DNA of 64,000 nt, from positions 8,624 to 72,623 of the forward strand of contig JANXGQ010000036.1 in NCBI GenBank assembly GCA_024959305.1, read 5' to 3'. Made by a program: the position numbers and the translations under genes. The stretch is from Porticoccaceae bacterium (GTDB lineage Bacteria > Pseudomonadota > Gammaproteobacteria > Pseudomonadales > Porticoccaceae). Each line of letters opens with the position of its first letter. Position 1 is the first letter of the stretch. Below are positions 26,102 through 63,659 of this stretch, piece by piece. The notes under the pieces are model-generated. The model was given only the letters and a program-made list of their open reading frames with translations, had not been told where the DNA came from and searched no databases.

Positions 26102-26140
26102 TCCTAATTTCGCAGTTGAACTGTCAACGAAATCAATTTA

Positions 26141-26200
26141 AGCGCGATAACTGTGCAATTGACAGATTCTAGCCACTGCTCTACGCACCAATACTGTGCC
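26141..26200. promoter_or_regulatory. Two candidate NtrC-type enhancer sites
   Basis: AGCGCGATAACTGTGCA (26141-26157) and CGCACCAATACTGTGCC (26184-26200) partially match TGCACCA-N3-TGGTGCA and lie upstream of the sigma54-like promoter. Confidence 0.5.
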
Positions 26201-26249
26201 ACGCCAATAACCGCCGACTTAAAACTCTTGTCAGGAAACTTTTTTAGTT

Positions 26250-26265
26250 TGGCACGAATTTTGTA
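26250..26265 (+). promoter_or_regulatory. Candidate sigma54 (-24/-12) promoter of the nirB operon
   Basis: TGGCAC-GAATT-TTGTA vs consensus TGGCAC-N5-TTGCW; correct GG-N10-G spacing, one mismatch at -12. Confidence 0.62.
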
Positions 26266-26337
26266 TATGGTAGGGTAGAAAGGCGCTAGGTTGTCAACCC
26301 ACTCTTTTAAGGGCAGCAGCCTAGTGCATCATAAGAT

Positions 26338-26477
26338 GAGACCTTTGCACGGATAGAGATTTTGTTCTCAGACAAGGCAAAATCGCACGGAATAAGGGAG
26401 TTTATAGATCATAAATGACCGAATGAGTACGATTTTAACGCCGTATGAGGGCAAAAGATCATTTGCGCAAAGGTCTC
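26338..26477. mobile_element. 140-bp miniature inverted-repeat element (MITE) in the nirB leader
   Basis: TIRs GAGACCTTTGC / GCAAAGGTCTC (11 bp perfect, 12/13 extended). Direct repeat AAGAT on both flanks (26333-26337 and 26478-26482). Internal pairings AAAATCG...CGATTTT and TTTAT-agatc-ATAAA. No ORF. Confidence 0.8.
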
Positions 26478-26499
26478 AAGATAAGTGAAGGAAAAAATA

Positions 26500-29025
26500 A
26501 TGTTAAATGTAGTTGTAGTAGGTAACGGCATGGTGGGTCACCATTATGTGGCGCAGCTAGTGGATTCCGGTATTGATGCCAAAATTACCGTTATTGGTGG
26601 CGAACCCAGACCCGCTTATGATCGGGTTCACCTCTCGGAGTTTTTTGCCGGCCGGTCGCCAGAAGAACTGGCACTTACAACTAGAGAGCATTACGCTGAA
26701 TTGGGAGTCGATGCTCATTTTGGCGATCCTGTCGAGCGCATAGATCGCGACAATAAAACGGTCATTACTAACGCTGGCCGCAGCTTCTCCTACGACAAGC
26801 TAGTGCTGGCCACCGGCTCCTATCCCTTTGTGCCCCCAATAGCGGGCTCTGACCACCAAGCCTGTGCGGTGTACCGAACCATCGATGATTTAGGCAATAT
26901 TCAAGCACAGTCCAAAGGTGCAAAAGTAGGGGTTGTCGTGGGCGGCGGTCTGCTGGGTCTAGAAGCAGCCAATGCACTGCAAAATCTCGGCCTGGAAACC
27001 CATGTAGTCGAATTCGCACCCGGGCTAATGGGCGTGCAATTAGATACTGGTGGCAGCGCCATGTTGCGCCGCAAGATTGAGGCCCTAGGGGTGCAAGTAC
27101 ACACTAGAAAGGCCACAGAGGTCATTGAAGAAAATGTACAGGGCGAAACCCGCCTAGAGATGAAGTTTGCCGATGGCGAGTCGCTGGCCACAGATGTTAT
27201 TGTATTTTCTGCGGGAATTCGCCCCTATGATCAACTGGCACGGGATGCAGATCTCAAGGTTGGCGAACGCGGTGGAATTGACGTCGATTACCATTGTAAA
27301 ACCAGTGATTCAGATATTTTTGCTATAGGCGAATGCGCTCTGTTTGGCGGTCGTATCTTCGGTTTGGTAGCGCCAGGTTACCGCATGGCTGAGGCCGCAG
27401 TCAGCCAACTCGGCAACGATCCCATACCTTTTCAGGGTGCAGATATGAGCACCAAGCTAAAATTGCTCGGTGTAGATGTGGGTTCCATTGGCGATGCTCA
27501 CGGCAAGTGTGAAGGCTCCATTGCCTATACTTTTAGCGATGAGCGTATCGAAATCTACAAACGTATTATCGTCAGCGCAGATGGCAAAAAACTACTGGGC
27601 GCTGTTTTAGTCGGTGACTGCTCAGACTATGACAGCTTGCTCCAGTACTTTTTAAATGACATTGAGCTGCCCGCAGACCCTGAAACCTTAATTCTGCCTT
27701 ATAACGCCGGCTCTGCACCCACTTTGGGCGCCGCGGCACTGCCTGCCACCGCCACTATCTGCTCCTGCCACAATGTCAGCAAAGGCGATATTGTCGATGC
27801 GATGGAGGCGGGACACTGCTCCCTTGCCGCGGTAAAATCTGAAACCGCCGCCAGCACCGGTTGCGGTGGCTGTACCGCACTGCTGAAAAATATTGTCGAT
27901 ACCGAAATGGCCGAGCGCGGACTTGAAGTTGATACCTCGATCTGCGAACACTTTGCCCACACCCGCCAAGAGTTGTTCCATCTGATCAAAGTGGGCAGTA
28001 TCAAAAGCTTTGATGAGCTACTCGACAAACATGGCACGGGGCGCGGCTGTGATATCTGCAAGCCAGCGACCGGATCTATCCTCGCCTCACTGTGGAATGA
28101 CTATGTCTTAGAAGAAAAACATGTGGGCTTGCAGGATACCAACGATACATTTTTAGCCAATATGCAAAAAAACGGGACCTACTCTGTAGTTCCGCGAATT
28201 GCCGGTGGTGAAATCACTCCCGACAAACTGATTGTGCTGGGTCAGGTGGCGAAGAAATATAACCTCTATACAAAGATTACTGGAGGTCAGCGCATTGATT
28301 TATTCGGTGCGCGAGTGCAGCACCTGCCCGCTATCTGGAAAGAATTGGTCGAGGCCGGTTTTGAAACGGGTCACGCCTACGGCAAAGCATTGCGCACAGT
28401 GAAATCCTGTGTGGGCAGCACCTGGTGTAGATACGGCGTGCAAGACAGTGTCGCTATGGCTCTGTATGTAGAAAACCGCTACAAAGGCCTGCGCTCACCG
28501 CACAAGCTAAAATCCGCAGTGTCGGGCTGTACTCGGGAATGCGCCGAGGCCCAGTCTAAAGACTTTGGTGTGATAGCCACAGAAAATGGTTGGAATCTAT
28601 TTGTTTGCGGCAACGGCGGTATGAAACCACGCCATGCCGACCTGTTCGCCACTGATTTGGATGATGAAACTCTGATTAAATACATAGATCGCTTTTTAAT
28701 GTTCTATGTGCGCACCGCTGACCGCCTGCAGCGCACTTCTGTGTGGATGGACAACCTAGAGGGCGGTCTGGATTATCTCAAGCAGGTAGTGATCGAAGAT
28801 TCTCTGGGTATCGCCGCCGAACTTGAAGAACAGATGAACAATATTGTCGGCACCTATCAATGTGAGTGGAAAACCACCATTGAAGATCCTGAGCGTCTCA
28901 AGCGTTTTGTGCAGTTTGTTAATACTGACGAAGACGACGAGAAGATTATCTTTGTGCAGGAACGCGGACAGCCGCGACCGGCTACAGAAGAAGAGCGCCA
29001 GACACTACTGAAAGAAACTGCGTAG
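26500..29025 (+). CDS. nirB: Assimilatory nitrite reductase (NADH), large subunit
   Basis: VVVGNGMVGH, KLVLATGSYPFVPP, GGGLLGLEAA, CSCHNV/TGCGGC, CEHF...GCDICKP, RTVKSCVGSTWCRYG, GCTRECAEAQ siroheme/[4Fe-4S] ligands. Confidence 0.96.
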   Translation: MLNVVVVGNGMVGHHYVAQLVDSGIDAKITVIGGEPRPAYDRVHLSEFFAGRSPEELALTTREHYAELGVDAHFGDPVERIDRDNKTVITNAGRSFSYDKLVLATGSYPFVPPIAGSDHQACAVYRTIDDLGNIQAQSKGAKVGVVVGGGLLGLEAANALQNLGLETHVVEFAPGLMGVQLDTGGSAMLRRKIEALGVQVHTRKATEVIEENVQGETRLEMKFADGESLATDVIVFSAGIRPYDQLARDADLKVGERGGIDVDYHCKTSDSDIFAIGECALFGGRIFGLVAPGYRMAEAAVSQLGNDPIPFQGADMSTKLKLLGVDVGSIGDAHGKCEGSIAYTFSDERIEIYKRIIVSADGKKLLGAVLVGDCSDYDSLLQYFLNDIELPADPETLILPYNAGSAPTLGAAALPATATICSCHNVSKGDIVDAMEAGHCSLAAVKSETAASTGCGGCTALLKNIVDTEMAERGLEVDTSICEHFAHTRQELFHLIKVGSIKSFDELLDKHGTGRGCDICKPATGSILASLWNDYVLEEKHVGLQDTNDTFLANMQKNGTYSVVPRIAGGEITPDKLIVLGQVAKKYNLYTKITGGQRIDLFGARVQHLPAIWKELVEAGFETGHAYGKALRTVKSCVGSTWCRYGVQDSVAMALYVENRYKGLRSPHKLKSAVSGCTRECAEAQSKDFGVIATENGWNLFVCGNGGMKPRHADLFATDLDDETLIKYIDRFLMFYVRTADRLQRTSVWMDNLEGGLDYLKQVVIEDSLGIAAELEEQMNNIVGTYQCEWKTTIEDPERLKRFVQFVNTDEDDEKIIFVQERGQPRPATEEERQTLLKETA

Positions 29026-63638: not shown

Positions 63639-63659
63639 GAGACCATTGCATTAGGGCGA
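63639..63659. repeat. Isolated TIR-like end related to the 33578 and 26338 elements
   Basis: GAGACCATTGCATTAGGGCGA is 19/21 identical to 33578-33598, and its first 12 nt are 11/12 identical to the MITE TIR. Confidence 0.5.

What the first reader, a model, noticed from the sequence alone, without database searches (positions are those of the whole stretch)
26333..26482. Intact MITE with target-site duplication 22 nt upstream of the nirB start codon
Seen: a 140-bp element with GAGACCTTTGC/GCAAAGGTCTC termini, exact 5-bp AAGAT duplication and extensive internal self-complementarity. It sits between the putative promoter and the RBS (AAGGA at about 26488-26492). Established: GAGACCTTTGCA-type ends resemble those of the IS5-family element IS1106, and MITEs in leaders (e.g. 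Correia, ERIC) can alter mRNA processing, stability or translation. Inference: a non-autonomous IS5-family derivative has roughly tripled the nirB leader and may tune nitrate-assimilation expression. No cognate transposase is in the window.
Basis: partly seen in the sequence, partly recalled or inferred. Interest (0 to 1): 0.65.

Follow-up and report, generated by a model that had tools for sequence, protein, structure and literature searches.

The report
ERIC-like MITE in the nirB leader
The 140-bp hairpin just upstream of the nitrite-reductase gene is a real small mobile element with IS5-type ends, and its conserved centre links it to the classic ERIC repeats of E. coli and to a large, apparently undescribed family spread through many Gammaproteobacteria.

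Summary
Window 26338-26477 is a 140-bp hairpin element with perfect GAGACCTTTGC ends and an exact AAGAT duplication. It ends 22 nt before the nirB ATG at 26500.

It is a MITE, not a dedicated nirB leader RNA:
- The 1.58-Mb Porticoccaceae genome has about 17 hits, and relatives have many more.
- Of 30 such elements, 17 have flanking 5-mers matching at 4 or 5 of 5 positions. Offset controls gave 0 of 30.
- A same-order genome holds a 1265-bp IS5-family IS with the same 13-nt end and a 5-bp duplication. No transposase is present in the window's own genome.

- Only the outer ~13 nt are IS-like. The centre is more conserved than the ends and shows compensatory base-pair changes and a strand bias.
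- The centre is related to the ERIC/IRU core of E. coli.
- A covariance model hits 119 of 301 genomes of the order and 108 of 400 of the class. Subfamilies carry different ends and duplication lengths (TA, 4, 5 and 8 bp).
- Copies show a fixed polarity towards gene boundaries.

At nirB the element lies in a sigma54-type leader created after loss of the nitrate ABC-transporter genes. It is fixed in three metagenome populations. In the predicted fold the RBS stays unpaired. Any regulatory effect is untested.

The parts
26333..26337 (+). left copy of the 5-bp target-site duplication (AAGAT)
   Evidence: identical to 26478-26482; 5-bp duplications recur in 10 of 30 elements at 5/5 and in 7 of 30 at 4/5
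26338..26477 (+). 140-bp MITE body, in 'F' orientation (the strand the covariance model prefers), co-oriented with nirB
   Evidence: 100% self hit, copies of 97%, 95%, 88% and 87% identity elsewhere in the genome; R1 scores 157.8 bits on this strand
26338..26350 (+). left terminal inverted repeat GAGACCTTTGCAC (IS5-family type)
   Evidence: identical to the first 13 nt of the IS in L186; the first 12 nt match the ISNme1 and BrickBuilt TIRs in PMC4596501 Table 2
26465..26477 (+). right terminal inverted repeat GCGCAAAGGTCTC
26373..26443 (+). conserved ERIC-like core (CAAGGCAAAA..GCACGGAATAAGGGAGTTTAT-loop-ATAAATGACCGAATGAGTAC..TTTTAACGCCG)
   Evidence: the most conserved part across genomes; aligns to the E. 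coli ERIC core
26396..26420 (+). apical hairpin GGGAGTTTAT/ATAAATGACC with a possible tandem G.A/A.G internal loop
   Evidence: pairs 59:83 and 60:82 are invariant G-C, and pairs 64:78 and 68:74 covary; the G.A reading is my inference from the sequence
26478..26482 (+). right copy of the target-site duplication (AAGAT)
26250..26265 (+). sigma54-type promoter-like site TGGCACGAATTTTGTA
   Evidence: Sequence pattern. It is 86% identical over 28 nt to TTGGCACGGTTTTTGTATAA, which in G060 follows pitA and precedes the transporter genes. Function is inferred.
26283..26327 (+). older leader hairpin upstream of the insertion
   Evidence: MFE of the 266-nt leader
26488..26492 (+). Shine-Dalgarno AAGGA, unpaired in the predicted leader fold
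   Evidence: the homologous AAGGAAA is present before nirB in relatives
26500..29025 (+). nirB (NAD(P)H nitrite reductase large subunit), first gene after the element

Best explanation
What it is. Window 26338-26477 is a non-autonomous DNA transposon, a type II MITE. Its outermost ~13 nt (GAGACCTTTGCAC) are the ends recognised by an IS5-family transposase of the ISNme1/ISPg1 kind, which makes 5-bp target duplications. Its body is a strand-asymmetric, structure-conserved ~110-nt hairpin core related to the ERIC/IRU core of enterobacteria.

How it got here. It inserted into an AT-rich AAGAT pentamer 22 nt upstream of nirB. That leader had already formed when the three nitrate ABC-transporter genes were lost; in relatives these genes separate the pitA-proximal sigma54-type promoter from nirB. 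The transposase acted in trans and is no longer detectable in this genome. The insertion is now fixed in the population.

What it does here. The element is most likely transcribed as part of the nirBD-nasA leader, in its more stable 'F' orientation. It would fold into a hairpin of about -57 kcal/mol that ends 10 nt before the Shine-Dalgarno and leaves the SD and AUG unpaired. There is no U-tract, so it is not an intrinsic terminator. The likeliest consequence is little or no change in translation initiation. By analogy with ERIC, it may have a modest effect on leader RNA stability or processing by RNase E or RNase III.

Shown: anatomy, copy number, TSDs, the IS partner in another genome, covariation, the ERIC link, fixation.
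Inferred: the promoter, co-transcription, and any effect on expression.
For: Anatomy and chance.

Copies: 17 nhmmer hits in the own genome, plus copies in the same genus and in other families.

TSDs: of 30 elements with GAGACC-type ends, 10 match at 5/5 and 7 at 4/5, against 0 of 30 at 4/5 or better for offset control 5-mers. Examples are AAGAT, TACAG, TTAAA, GTTAA, AAATG, TAAAT, GATAA and AAAAG.

Ends: ISNme1 GAGACCTTTGCAAAA and ISPg1 GAGACCATTGCA are IS5-family TIRs (PMC4596501).

Partner IS: L186:995-2259 is a 1265-bp IS with IRL GAGACCTTTGCAC and TSD AAAGG/AAAGG. Its 334-aa transposase scores 273 bits to NF033581 'IS5 family transposase' and matches PF01609 and PF05598. It lies in a genome with at least 10 copies of the MITE.

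Structure: 37 consensus pairs, 20 of them with compensatory changes. 92.6% of cells are paired against about 44% when partners are slid. The covariation score is 0.381 against at most 0.134.

Strand bias: 68 G.U cells against 13 A.C cells; consensus energy -29.0 (F) against -15.9 (reverse complement) kcal/mol.

ERIC link:
- R1 was built without any enterobacterial sequence. It aligns full-length, on the correct strand, to E. coli ERIC copies (25 and 19 bits).
- Its only hit in a 5.1-Mb E. coli chromosome is an ERIC copy (30 bits, E = 0.002).
- An HMM of three ERIC copies places all five of its top hits in 193 kb of family loci on the elements, on the right strand and in register.

Local context: the promoter is homologous to the one in G060 that lies ahead of genes of 402, 270 and 574 aa and then nirB. 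In relatives nirB directly follows the transporter ATPase gene.

Fixation: three metagenome contigs 99.4-99.6% identical to the window carry an identical element at the same site.

Fold: SD and AUG are unpaired in the leader fold. No terminator-like site was found.
Against: - No IS5-family transposase is present in the own genome or in several other genomes that carry the element, including the near-complete G038. Mobilisation by that IS type therefore rests on the shared ends and TSD length.
- No empty-site allele was found for this copy or for two others.
- The ERIC relationship is weak at sequence level. An ERIC HMM finds nothing significant in the own genome, and its hits on family loci have E-values of 0.016-0.8.
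- The sigma54 promoter has TTGT instead of TTGC and is only a pattern match.
- 13 of 30 elements show no clear TSD.
Confidence: 0.75

Rival explanations
1. The element has been co-opted at this locus. The hairpin in the leader measurably changes nirBD-nasA expression. It could do so as a 5' stabiliser after processing, as an RNase III or RNase E entry site, or as a roadblock that couples expression to transcription rate.
For: - It is fixed and 100% identical in three population samples, while the surrounding 8 kb differs by about 0.5%.
- The arrangement 'element end 12-25 nt before a co-oriented start codon' recurs in other copies, for example C11, L141, L143, L148, L157 and L216.
- ERIC elements change the stability of co-transcribed mRNA in an orientation-dependent way (De Gregorio 2005, as summarised in PMC2229807 and PMC10969869).
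Against: - Zero differences in 140 nt is what 0.5% divergence would give anyway (about 0.8 expected).
- Other copies in unrelated contexts are equally fixed.
- The SD and AUG stay open in the fold.
- There are no expression data.
Confidence: 0.25
2. The resemblance to ERIC is convergence or chance. The element would then be simply an IS5-type MITE family with its own hairpin core.
For: - The reciprocal sequence-only search fails in the own genome.
- The E-values linking the two are modest.
- The termini and the TSD (5 bp against TA) differ.
Against: - The only model hit in a whole E. coli chromosome is an ERIC copy.
- All five top ERIC-HMM hits fall on elements, on the right strand and in register.
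- Collinear shared blocks are present: CAGG-AAGGC, GGAG(C/T)TTA(C/T)...(G/A)TAA(G/A)TGAC, TGAG and AACGC.
- Both show the same polarity towards stop codons.
Confidence: 0.2
3. It is a dedicated structured regulatory leader RNA of the nitrate-assimilation operon, of the riboswitch or antiterminator-target kind, and not a mobile element.
For: It has a very stable, covarying structure in a 5' leader. Nitrate-assimilation operons are known to use leader hairpins, as in NasR and NasT systems (established knowledge).
Against: - It is multi-copy and sits in unrelated contexts such as a cox operon end and a SpoU methylase gene.
- Flanking 5-bp duplications are present.
- It is absent before nirB in all relatives examined.
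- Rfam gives no match.
Confidence: 0.02
4. It is a REP/REPIN-type palindrome spread by a RAYT (IS200/IS605-like) enzyme, or it is an intrinsic terminator remnant.
For: It is a long palindromic intergenic repeat that often sits right after stop codons.
Against: - REPINs do not make target duplications, whereas these elements do.
- No T-run follows the hairpin, and the terminator scan found none.
- The ends match a DDE-transposase IS.
Confidence: 0.03

Closest known systems
ERIC / IRU (ISfinder MITEEc1) of Enterobacteriaceae and Vibrionaceae
   Same: - Similar size: 127 bp against 140 bp.
- Both are one long imperfect hairpin.
- Collinear conserved core blocks, including the apical GGAG(C/T)TTA(C/T)-loop-(G/A)TAA(G/A)TGAC hairpin.
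- Intergenic and multi-copy.
- Same polarity towards stop codons: ybhI and cusC in E. coli, and 33 against 8 in the family.
   Different: - ERIC ends are TATACTC.../...GAGTATA with a TA duplication, and ISfinder classifies it with IS630 (PMC3184786, PMC11602168). This element has GAGACCTTTGCAC ends and a 5-bp duplication.
- Sequence identity is too low for nhmmer to link the two in the own genome.
- The host is a marine Porticoccaceae bacterium, outside the described range (PMC10969869).
MITEs with ISNme1/IS1106- or ISPg1-type ends (Neisseria ATR; Porphyromonas BrickBuilt and MITEPgRS)
   Same: The 12-nt terminal repeat is the same, GAGACC(T/A)TTGCA (PMC4596501 Table 2). They are type II MITEs whose bodies are unrelated to the IS. 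The parent family is IS5.
   Different: BrickBuilt carries a minisatellite and has irregular TSDs. No body similarity was tested or seen.
IS5-family IS in L186 (G267:C21), the candidate autonomous partner
   Same: The first 13 nt are identical (GAGACCTTTGCAC). It makes a 5-bp AT-rich TSD (AAAGG). It sits in a same-order genome full of the MITE.
   Different: It is 1265 bp and encodes a 334-aa DDE transposase. Nothing beyond about 16 terminal nt is shared. It is not present in the window's genome.
Correia/NEMIS elements of Neisseria
   Same: It is a MITE that is co-transcribed within leaders and folds into a long hairpin that can be an RNase substrate (PMC10969869).
   Different: Correia has unrelated 26-bp TIRs, a TA duplication and an IHF site. 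No sequence relation exists.

Membership tests
MITE (generic) | short (<300 bp), non-coding, no transposase | tested here: met
   140 bp; no transposase in the window or the own genome
MITE (generic) | terminal inverted repeats | tested here: met
   an 11-12 nt perfect repeat, extended by an imperfect hairpin
MITE (generic) | target-site duplications of constant length at independent copies | tested here: met
   17 of 30 elements match at 4/5 or better, against 0 of 30 controls
MITE (generic) | multiple dispersed copies | tested here: met
   17 hits in 1.58 Mb; many genomes
MITE (generic) | presence/absence polymorphism (empty sites) | tested here: not met
   The copies at nirB, cox and SpoU are all fixed in the metagenome contigs. 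Orthologous sites in other species are not comparable.
IS5-family-mobilised MITE | TIR matches that of an IS5-family IS | tested here: met
   L186 IS; published ISNme1 and ISPg1 TIRs
IS5-family-mobilised MITE | same TSD length as the IS | tested here: met
   5 bp in both
IS5-family-mobilised MITE | cognate transposase in the same genome | tested here: not met
   PF01609 is absent from the own genome and from G038, G068 and G031, and present in G267. The own genome is a 96%-complete MAG, so absence is not certain.
IS5-family-mobilised MITE | actual mobilisation by that transposase | not testable with these tools
   needs a transposition assay
ERIC/IRU sensu stricto | conserved central core (the ERIC1R/ERIC2 region) | tested here: inconclusive
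   The structure-aware model links them. The sequence-only reciprocal search fails in the own genome.
ERIC/IRU sensu stricto | TA target duplication and TATACTC-type ends | tested here: not met
   5-bp TSD and GAGACC ends here. E. coli copies show TA|TACTC...GAGTA|TA.
ERIC/IRU sensu stricto | orientation bias relative to adjacent stop codons | tested here: met
   33 against 8 within 20 nt, and 30 against 3 overlapping or within 3 nt. The two E. coli copies next to stop codons follow the same rule.
Rfam RNA families | match to any curated covariance model | tested here: not met
   no hit on 26338-26477 at E up to 10

The most novel reading that the evidence does not exclude
The ERIC core is an ancient, strand-specific, structure-selected module carried by MITE families in about a quarter of sampled Gammaproteobacteria. 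It has repeatedly exchanged its terminal repeats and so rides on different transposases, with TA, 4-, 5- and 8-bp duplications. It also keeps a fixed polarity towards gene boundaries. This implies a function at the RNA or single-stranded-DNA level in mRNA-end biology that is selected independently of any one transposase.
Probability: 0.4. Interest if true: 0.75.

Novelty: new variant of a known kind. Interest (0 to 1): 0.55.

Why it matters
For this locus, the finding explains the odd, long nirB leader of a streamlined marine bacterium. It gives a clean natural construct (promoter, MITE hairpin, RBS) for testing what such hairpins do to a sigma54-driven nitrogen-assimilation operon.

More broadly, ERIC has been treated for 35 years as an enterobacterial and vibrio repeat of unknown origin. 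If its core is shared by families with other ends throughout the Gammaproteobacteria, then the conserved hairpin, not the transposase-binding ends, is the unit under selection. That makes the long-standing question of what ERIC-type repeats are for testable by comparative genomics and covariation. It also offers a covariance model that could annotate thousands of unexplained intergenic hairpins in marine genomes.

Tried and rejected
1. Empty-site search.
- nirB upstream regions of 11 relatives are not syntenic: a transporter ATPase gene precedes nirB there.
- The closest genus member, G060, has 4.7 kb of transporter genes between pitA and nirB.
- Exact-protein look-ups for NirD, a COX4-like protein and a UPF0270 protein returned only filled sites.

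2. Transposase in the own genome or in MITE-rich relatives.
- PF01609 is absent from both.
- The single hit, in G056 (L154), has no GAGACC ends.

3. Rfam: no family matches the element.

4. Sigma70 promoter and terminator scan: nothing on the + strand and no terminator. Outward-promoter and terminator readings were therefore dropped.

5. Reciprocal ERIC HMM against the own genome: no significant hit.

6. Strand test by counting G.U against A.C over the union of both strands' predicted structures. It was uninformative because the registers differ. The consensus energies were kept instead.

8. De Gregorio 2005 (the Yersinia ERIC paper) is not held in the library. Its content is cited only through reviews and, where marked, from memory.

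9. A literature search for ERIC-like elements in Pseudomonadales, Oceanospirillales or Alteromonadales found nothing relevant.

Full report
**Observation**

Window 26337-26348 (TGAGACCTTTGC) and 26467-26478 (GCAAAGGTCTCA) are perfectly complementary. AAGAT flanks the 140-bp element (26338-26477) on both sides. The exact 11-mer occurs only at these two places in the window. With one mismatch allowed there are 6 matches against 1.09 expected. As RNA, the 150-nt stretch folds into a single hairpin of -59.3 kcal/mol, with z = -10 against shuffles.

The downstream ORF is nirB by Pfam. It is followed by nirD, a molybdopterin oxidoreductase and an Fe-S/DmsC fusion. The ATG is at 26500, so exactly 22 nt separate the element from it. 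AAGGA lies at 26488-26492.

**It is a mobile element, not a private leader RNA**

The window lies in a 1.58-Mb, 97-contig, 96%-complete genome. Its nirB is closest to that of Porticoccaceae MAGs, at up to 88% amino-acid identity.

The element recurs in this genome:
- Intact 140-141-bp copies lie at C58:9090-9229 (97% identity), C25:39767-39906 (95%), C18:19952-20092 (88%) and C68:14784-14923 (87%).
- Two copies carry internal inserts (C11, 181 bp; C3, 217 bp).
- There are about ten fragments, giving 17 nhmmer hits in all.
- A sister subfamily with GAGACCATTGCATTAG ends has three further intact copies.

Of these 30, the flanking 5-mers are identical in 10 and match at 4 of 5 in 7. Control 5-mers offset by six bases never reach 4 of 5. 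The duplicated pentamers are AT-rich: AAGAT, TACAG, TCAAT, TTAAA, GTTAA, TAAAT, AAATG, GATAA and AAAAG.

**Ends and partner**

A published table gives these TIRs for IS5-family elements: ISNme1 GAGACCTTTGCAAAA, and ISPg1/ISPg9 GAGACCATTGCA. It also lists MITEs that borrow them (PMC4596501). Both variants occur in this genome.

No DDE_Tnp_1 transposase is detectable in the own genome. The same holds for several other carriers, including the two-contig genome G038.

G267 is a same-order genome with at least ten copies of the MITE. It holds a 1265-bp IS at L186:995-2259. This IS has IRL GAGACCTTTGCAC, IRR GAGAGCTTTGCAT (written as reverse complement) and an AAAGG/AAAGG duplication. Its 334-aa transposase scores 273 bits to NCBIfam NF033581, 'IS5 family transposase', and matches PF01609 and PF05598.

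Only about 13-16 terminal nucleotides are shared between the IS and the MITE. The element is therefore a type II MITE and not a deletion derivative.

**The body is the surprising part**

Copies from other genomes of the genus and order are most conserved in the centre (element positions about 36-106) and least conserved at the ends. Some relatives keep the centre but have entirely different, still self-complementary, outer arms.

On an unfitted MAFFT alignment of 18 copies from 6 genomes:
- RNAalifold predicts 37 pairs, 20 of them with compensatory double changes.
- 92.6% of cells pair, against about 44% when partners are slid by 1-3 columns.
- The covariation score is 0.381 against at most 0.134, and no shuffle reaches it.

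The structure is also strand-asymmetric:
- 68 G.U cells against 13 A.C cells.
- Consensus energy of -29.0 kcal/mol on the strand I call F (the window's + strand), against -15.9 on its complement.
- Mean single-sequence MFE of -47.2 against -39.8 kcal/mol.
- The covariance model R1 scores about 148 bits on F and about 40 on the complement.

This points to selection on a single-stranded fold, RNA or ssDNA, rather than on duplex transposase sites alone. That last step is inference.

**Link to ERIC**

The apical motif GGGAG(T/C)TTA(T/C)-loop-(A/G)TAA(A/G)TGACC...TGAG reminded me of the ERIC core, that is, the ERIC1R/ERIC2 primer region. That was a lead from memory, so I tested it.

- The 44-nt core occurs in 5424 of 5426 complete E. 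coli genomes.
- R1 contains no enterobacterial sequence. It aligns full-length and on the correct strand to two E. coli ERIC copies, at 25 and 19 bits. The shared collinear blocks are CAGG-AAGGC, the apical hairpin, TGAG and AACGC.
- In a whole 5.1-Mb E. coli chromosome, the model's only hit is an ERIC copy (30 bits, E = 0.002).
- In the other direction, an HMM of three ERIC copies finds nothing significant in the own genome.
- However, its five best hits in 193 kb of family loci all fall on the elements, on the right strand and in register (E = 0.016-0.8).

I read this as real but distant homology, with a probability of about 0.75.

ERIC itself has TATACTC-type ends and a TA duplication (PMC3184786). 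ISfinder files it as MITEEc1 with IS630 (PMC11602168). It is described only from Enterobacteriaceae and Vibrionaceae (PMC10969869). The element here fails two defining features of ERIC sensu stricto, so I do not file it as ERIC. I file it as a relative that shares the core.

**Distribution and end types**

R1 hits:
- 119 of 301 genomes of the GTDB order, in 65 of 134 genera.
- 108 of 400 genomes sampled across the class, in 93 of 309 genera.

Hits are usually multi-copy. They share the core but fall into subfamilies with different ends and duplication lengths:

| End type | Duplication | Examples |
|---|---|---|
| GAGACCTTTGCAC | 5 bp | the window copy and others above |
| GTAACTnnTCAGCGTG | 8 bp | L218 GAATTAAC 8/8; L221 7/8; L219 6/8 |
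| GGGCACCTCTA | 4 bp | L234 TTAA; L231 TGAA |
| GAGGGTGTCGC | not determined | L223 |
| ERIC | TA | E. coli copies |

The samples for the non-GAGACC types are small, so their TSD lengths are only suggestive.

**Polarity**

I surveyed 75 copies with a simple ORF caller. The F-3' end lies within 20 nt of the stop codon of a convergent gene in 33 copies. The mirror arrangement, with the F-5' end next to the stop of a co-oriented gene, occurs in 8 (binomial p = 1e-4). For overlap or a gap of 3 nt or less, the counts are 30 against 3.

The ends are symmetric, so they cannot explain this. The two E. coli ERIC copies that lie beside stop codons (ybhI and cusC) follow the same rule. This matches what I recall of De Gregorio et al. 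2005 for Yersinia. That paper is not held, and reviews confirm only that orientation is crucial (PMC2229807).

When a copy instead precedes a co-oriented gene, as at nirB, its F-3' end typically sits 12-25 nt before the start codon. Examples are C11, L141, L143, L148, L157 and L216. Why it is always the same end that faces the gene boundary is unexplained.

**The nirB locus**

In relatives, nirB directly follows a nitrate ABC-transporter ATPase gene. In the closest genus member, G060, the order is pitA, a TTGGCACGGTTTTTGTATAA site, three genes of 402, 270 and 574 aa, and then nirB.

The window keeps the homologous sigma54-type site, TGGCACGAATTTTGTA at 26250-26265. This is 86% identical over 28 nt to the G060 site. 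The three genes are gone, however: only 398 nt separate pitA from nirB. No NrtA or NrtB homologue is found anywhere in the genome.

The intact AAGAT duplication argues that the MITE inserted into the already-shortened leader and did not itself cause the deletion.

Three metagenome contigs, 99.4-99.6% identical to the window, carry an identical element at the same place. Their only intergenic difference is 26244 T>C.

Folding 26275-26540 gives an older hairpin at 26283-26327, then the MITE hairpin, with the SD and AUG unpaired. No T-run follows the hairpin, and no terminator-like site was found.

The most likely state is therefore a co-transcribed, very stable hairpin just ahead of an accessible RBS. 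Whether it alters mRNA stability or processing, as ERIC and Correia elements can (PMC10969869), is untested. I put a real regulatory effect at about 0.25.

**Limits**

- No empty site was found.
- The transposase partnership is inferred from shared ends and TSD length.
- The ERIC homology is one-directional at significance level.
- ORF calls in the polarity survey are heuristic, and a few loci are orthologous and so not independent.

**Verdict**

The added value is that the element belongs to a large, apparently undescribed ERIC-related superfamily. Its core is structure-conserved and strand-specific, its ends are interchangeable, and its polarity towards genes is fixed.

Noticed in passing
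window 26102-26499, compared with L153 (G060:C23:31000-37500): The three nitrate ABC-transporter genes (402, 270 and 574 aa) that separate pitA from nirB in the closest relative are missing here. tblastn finds no NrtA or NrtB homologue anywhere in the 96%-complete genome. Only a 41%-identical ATPase paralogue turns up, on C36. How this organism takes up nitrate for its nirBD-nasA cluster is unclear.
   Followed up: partly
window 63639-63659: There is a solo 21-nt end, GAGACCATTGCATTAGGGCGA. It belongs to a second MITE subfamily with ISPg1-type ends. Intact 140-142-bp copies of that subfamily lie at C93:4691-4832, C55:23272-23411 and C25:10586-10725; the last has a TCAAT/TCAAT duplication.
   Followed up: partly
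family-wide (75 copies; loci L139-L243 and own-genome copies): The same end of the element, F-3', faces the nearest gene boundary. It overlaps or lies within 3 nt of the stop codon of a convergent gene in 30 copies, against 3 for the mirror case. Alternatively it sits 12-25 nt before a co-oriented start codon. The symmetric terminal repeats cannot explain this.
   Followed up: partly
L169 and L180 (G139, G271): In two distant genomes the core-bearing hairpin ends directly at the 5' end of a tRNA gene; the flank reads TAGCTCAGTTGG or TAGCTCAGCTGG. This may be within an rRNA operon spacer. It was not examined.
   Followed up: no
own genome C11:4914-5094 and C3:7939-8155; L142, L166, L172: Several copies carry an extra small hairpin inserted at the same internal position. 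An example is GGGCGACTGTTGCGTAATTTATTATGCAACAGTCCC. This suggests nested or modular growth of the element.
   Followed up: no
window 26283-26327: A 45-nt hairpin (GCGCTAGGTTG...CAGCCTAGTGC) lies between the sigma54-type site and the MITE. It could be the remnant of the original leader control element of the transporter operon. No ANTAR or NasR-type regulator was looked for.
   Followed up: no
L164:1501-2021 (G303): Three core-bearing hairpins lie in tandem within about 520 bp, scoring 101.9, 60.9 and 45.7 bits. This is a clustered arrangement not seen in the window's genome.
   Followed up: no
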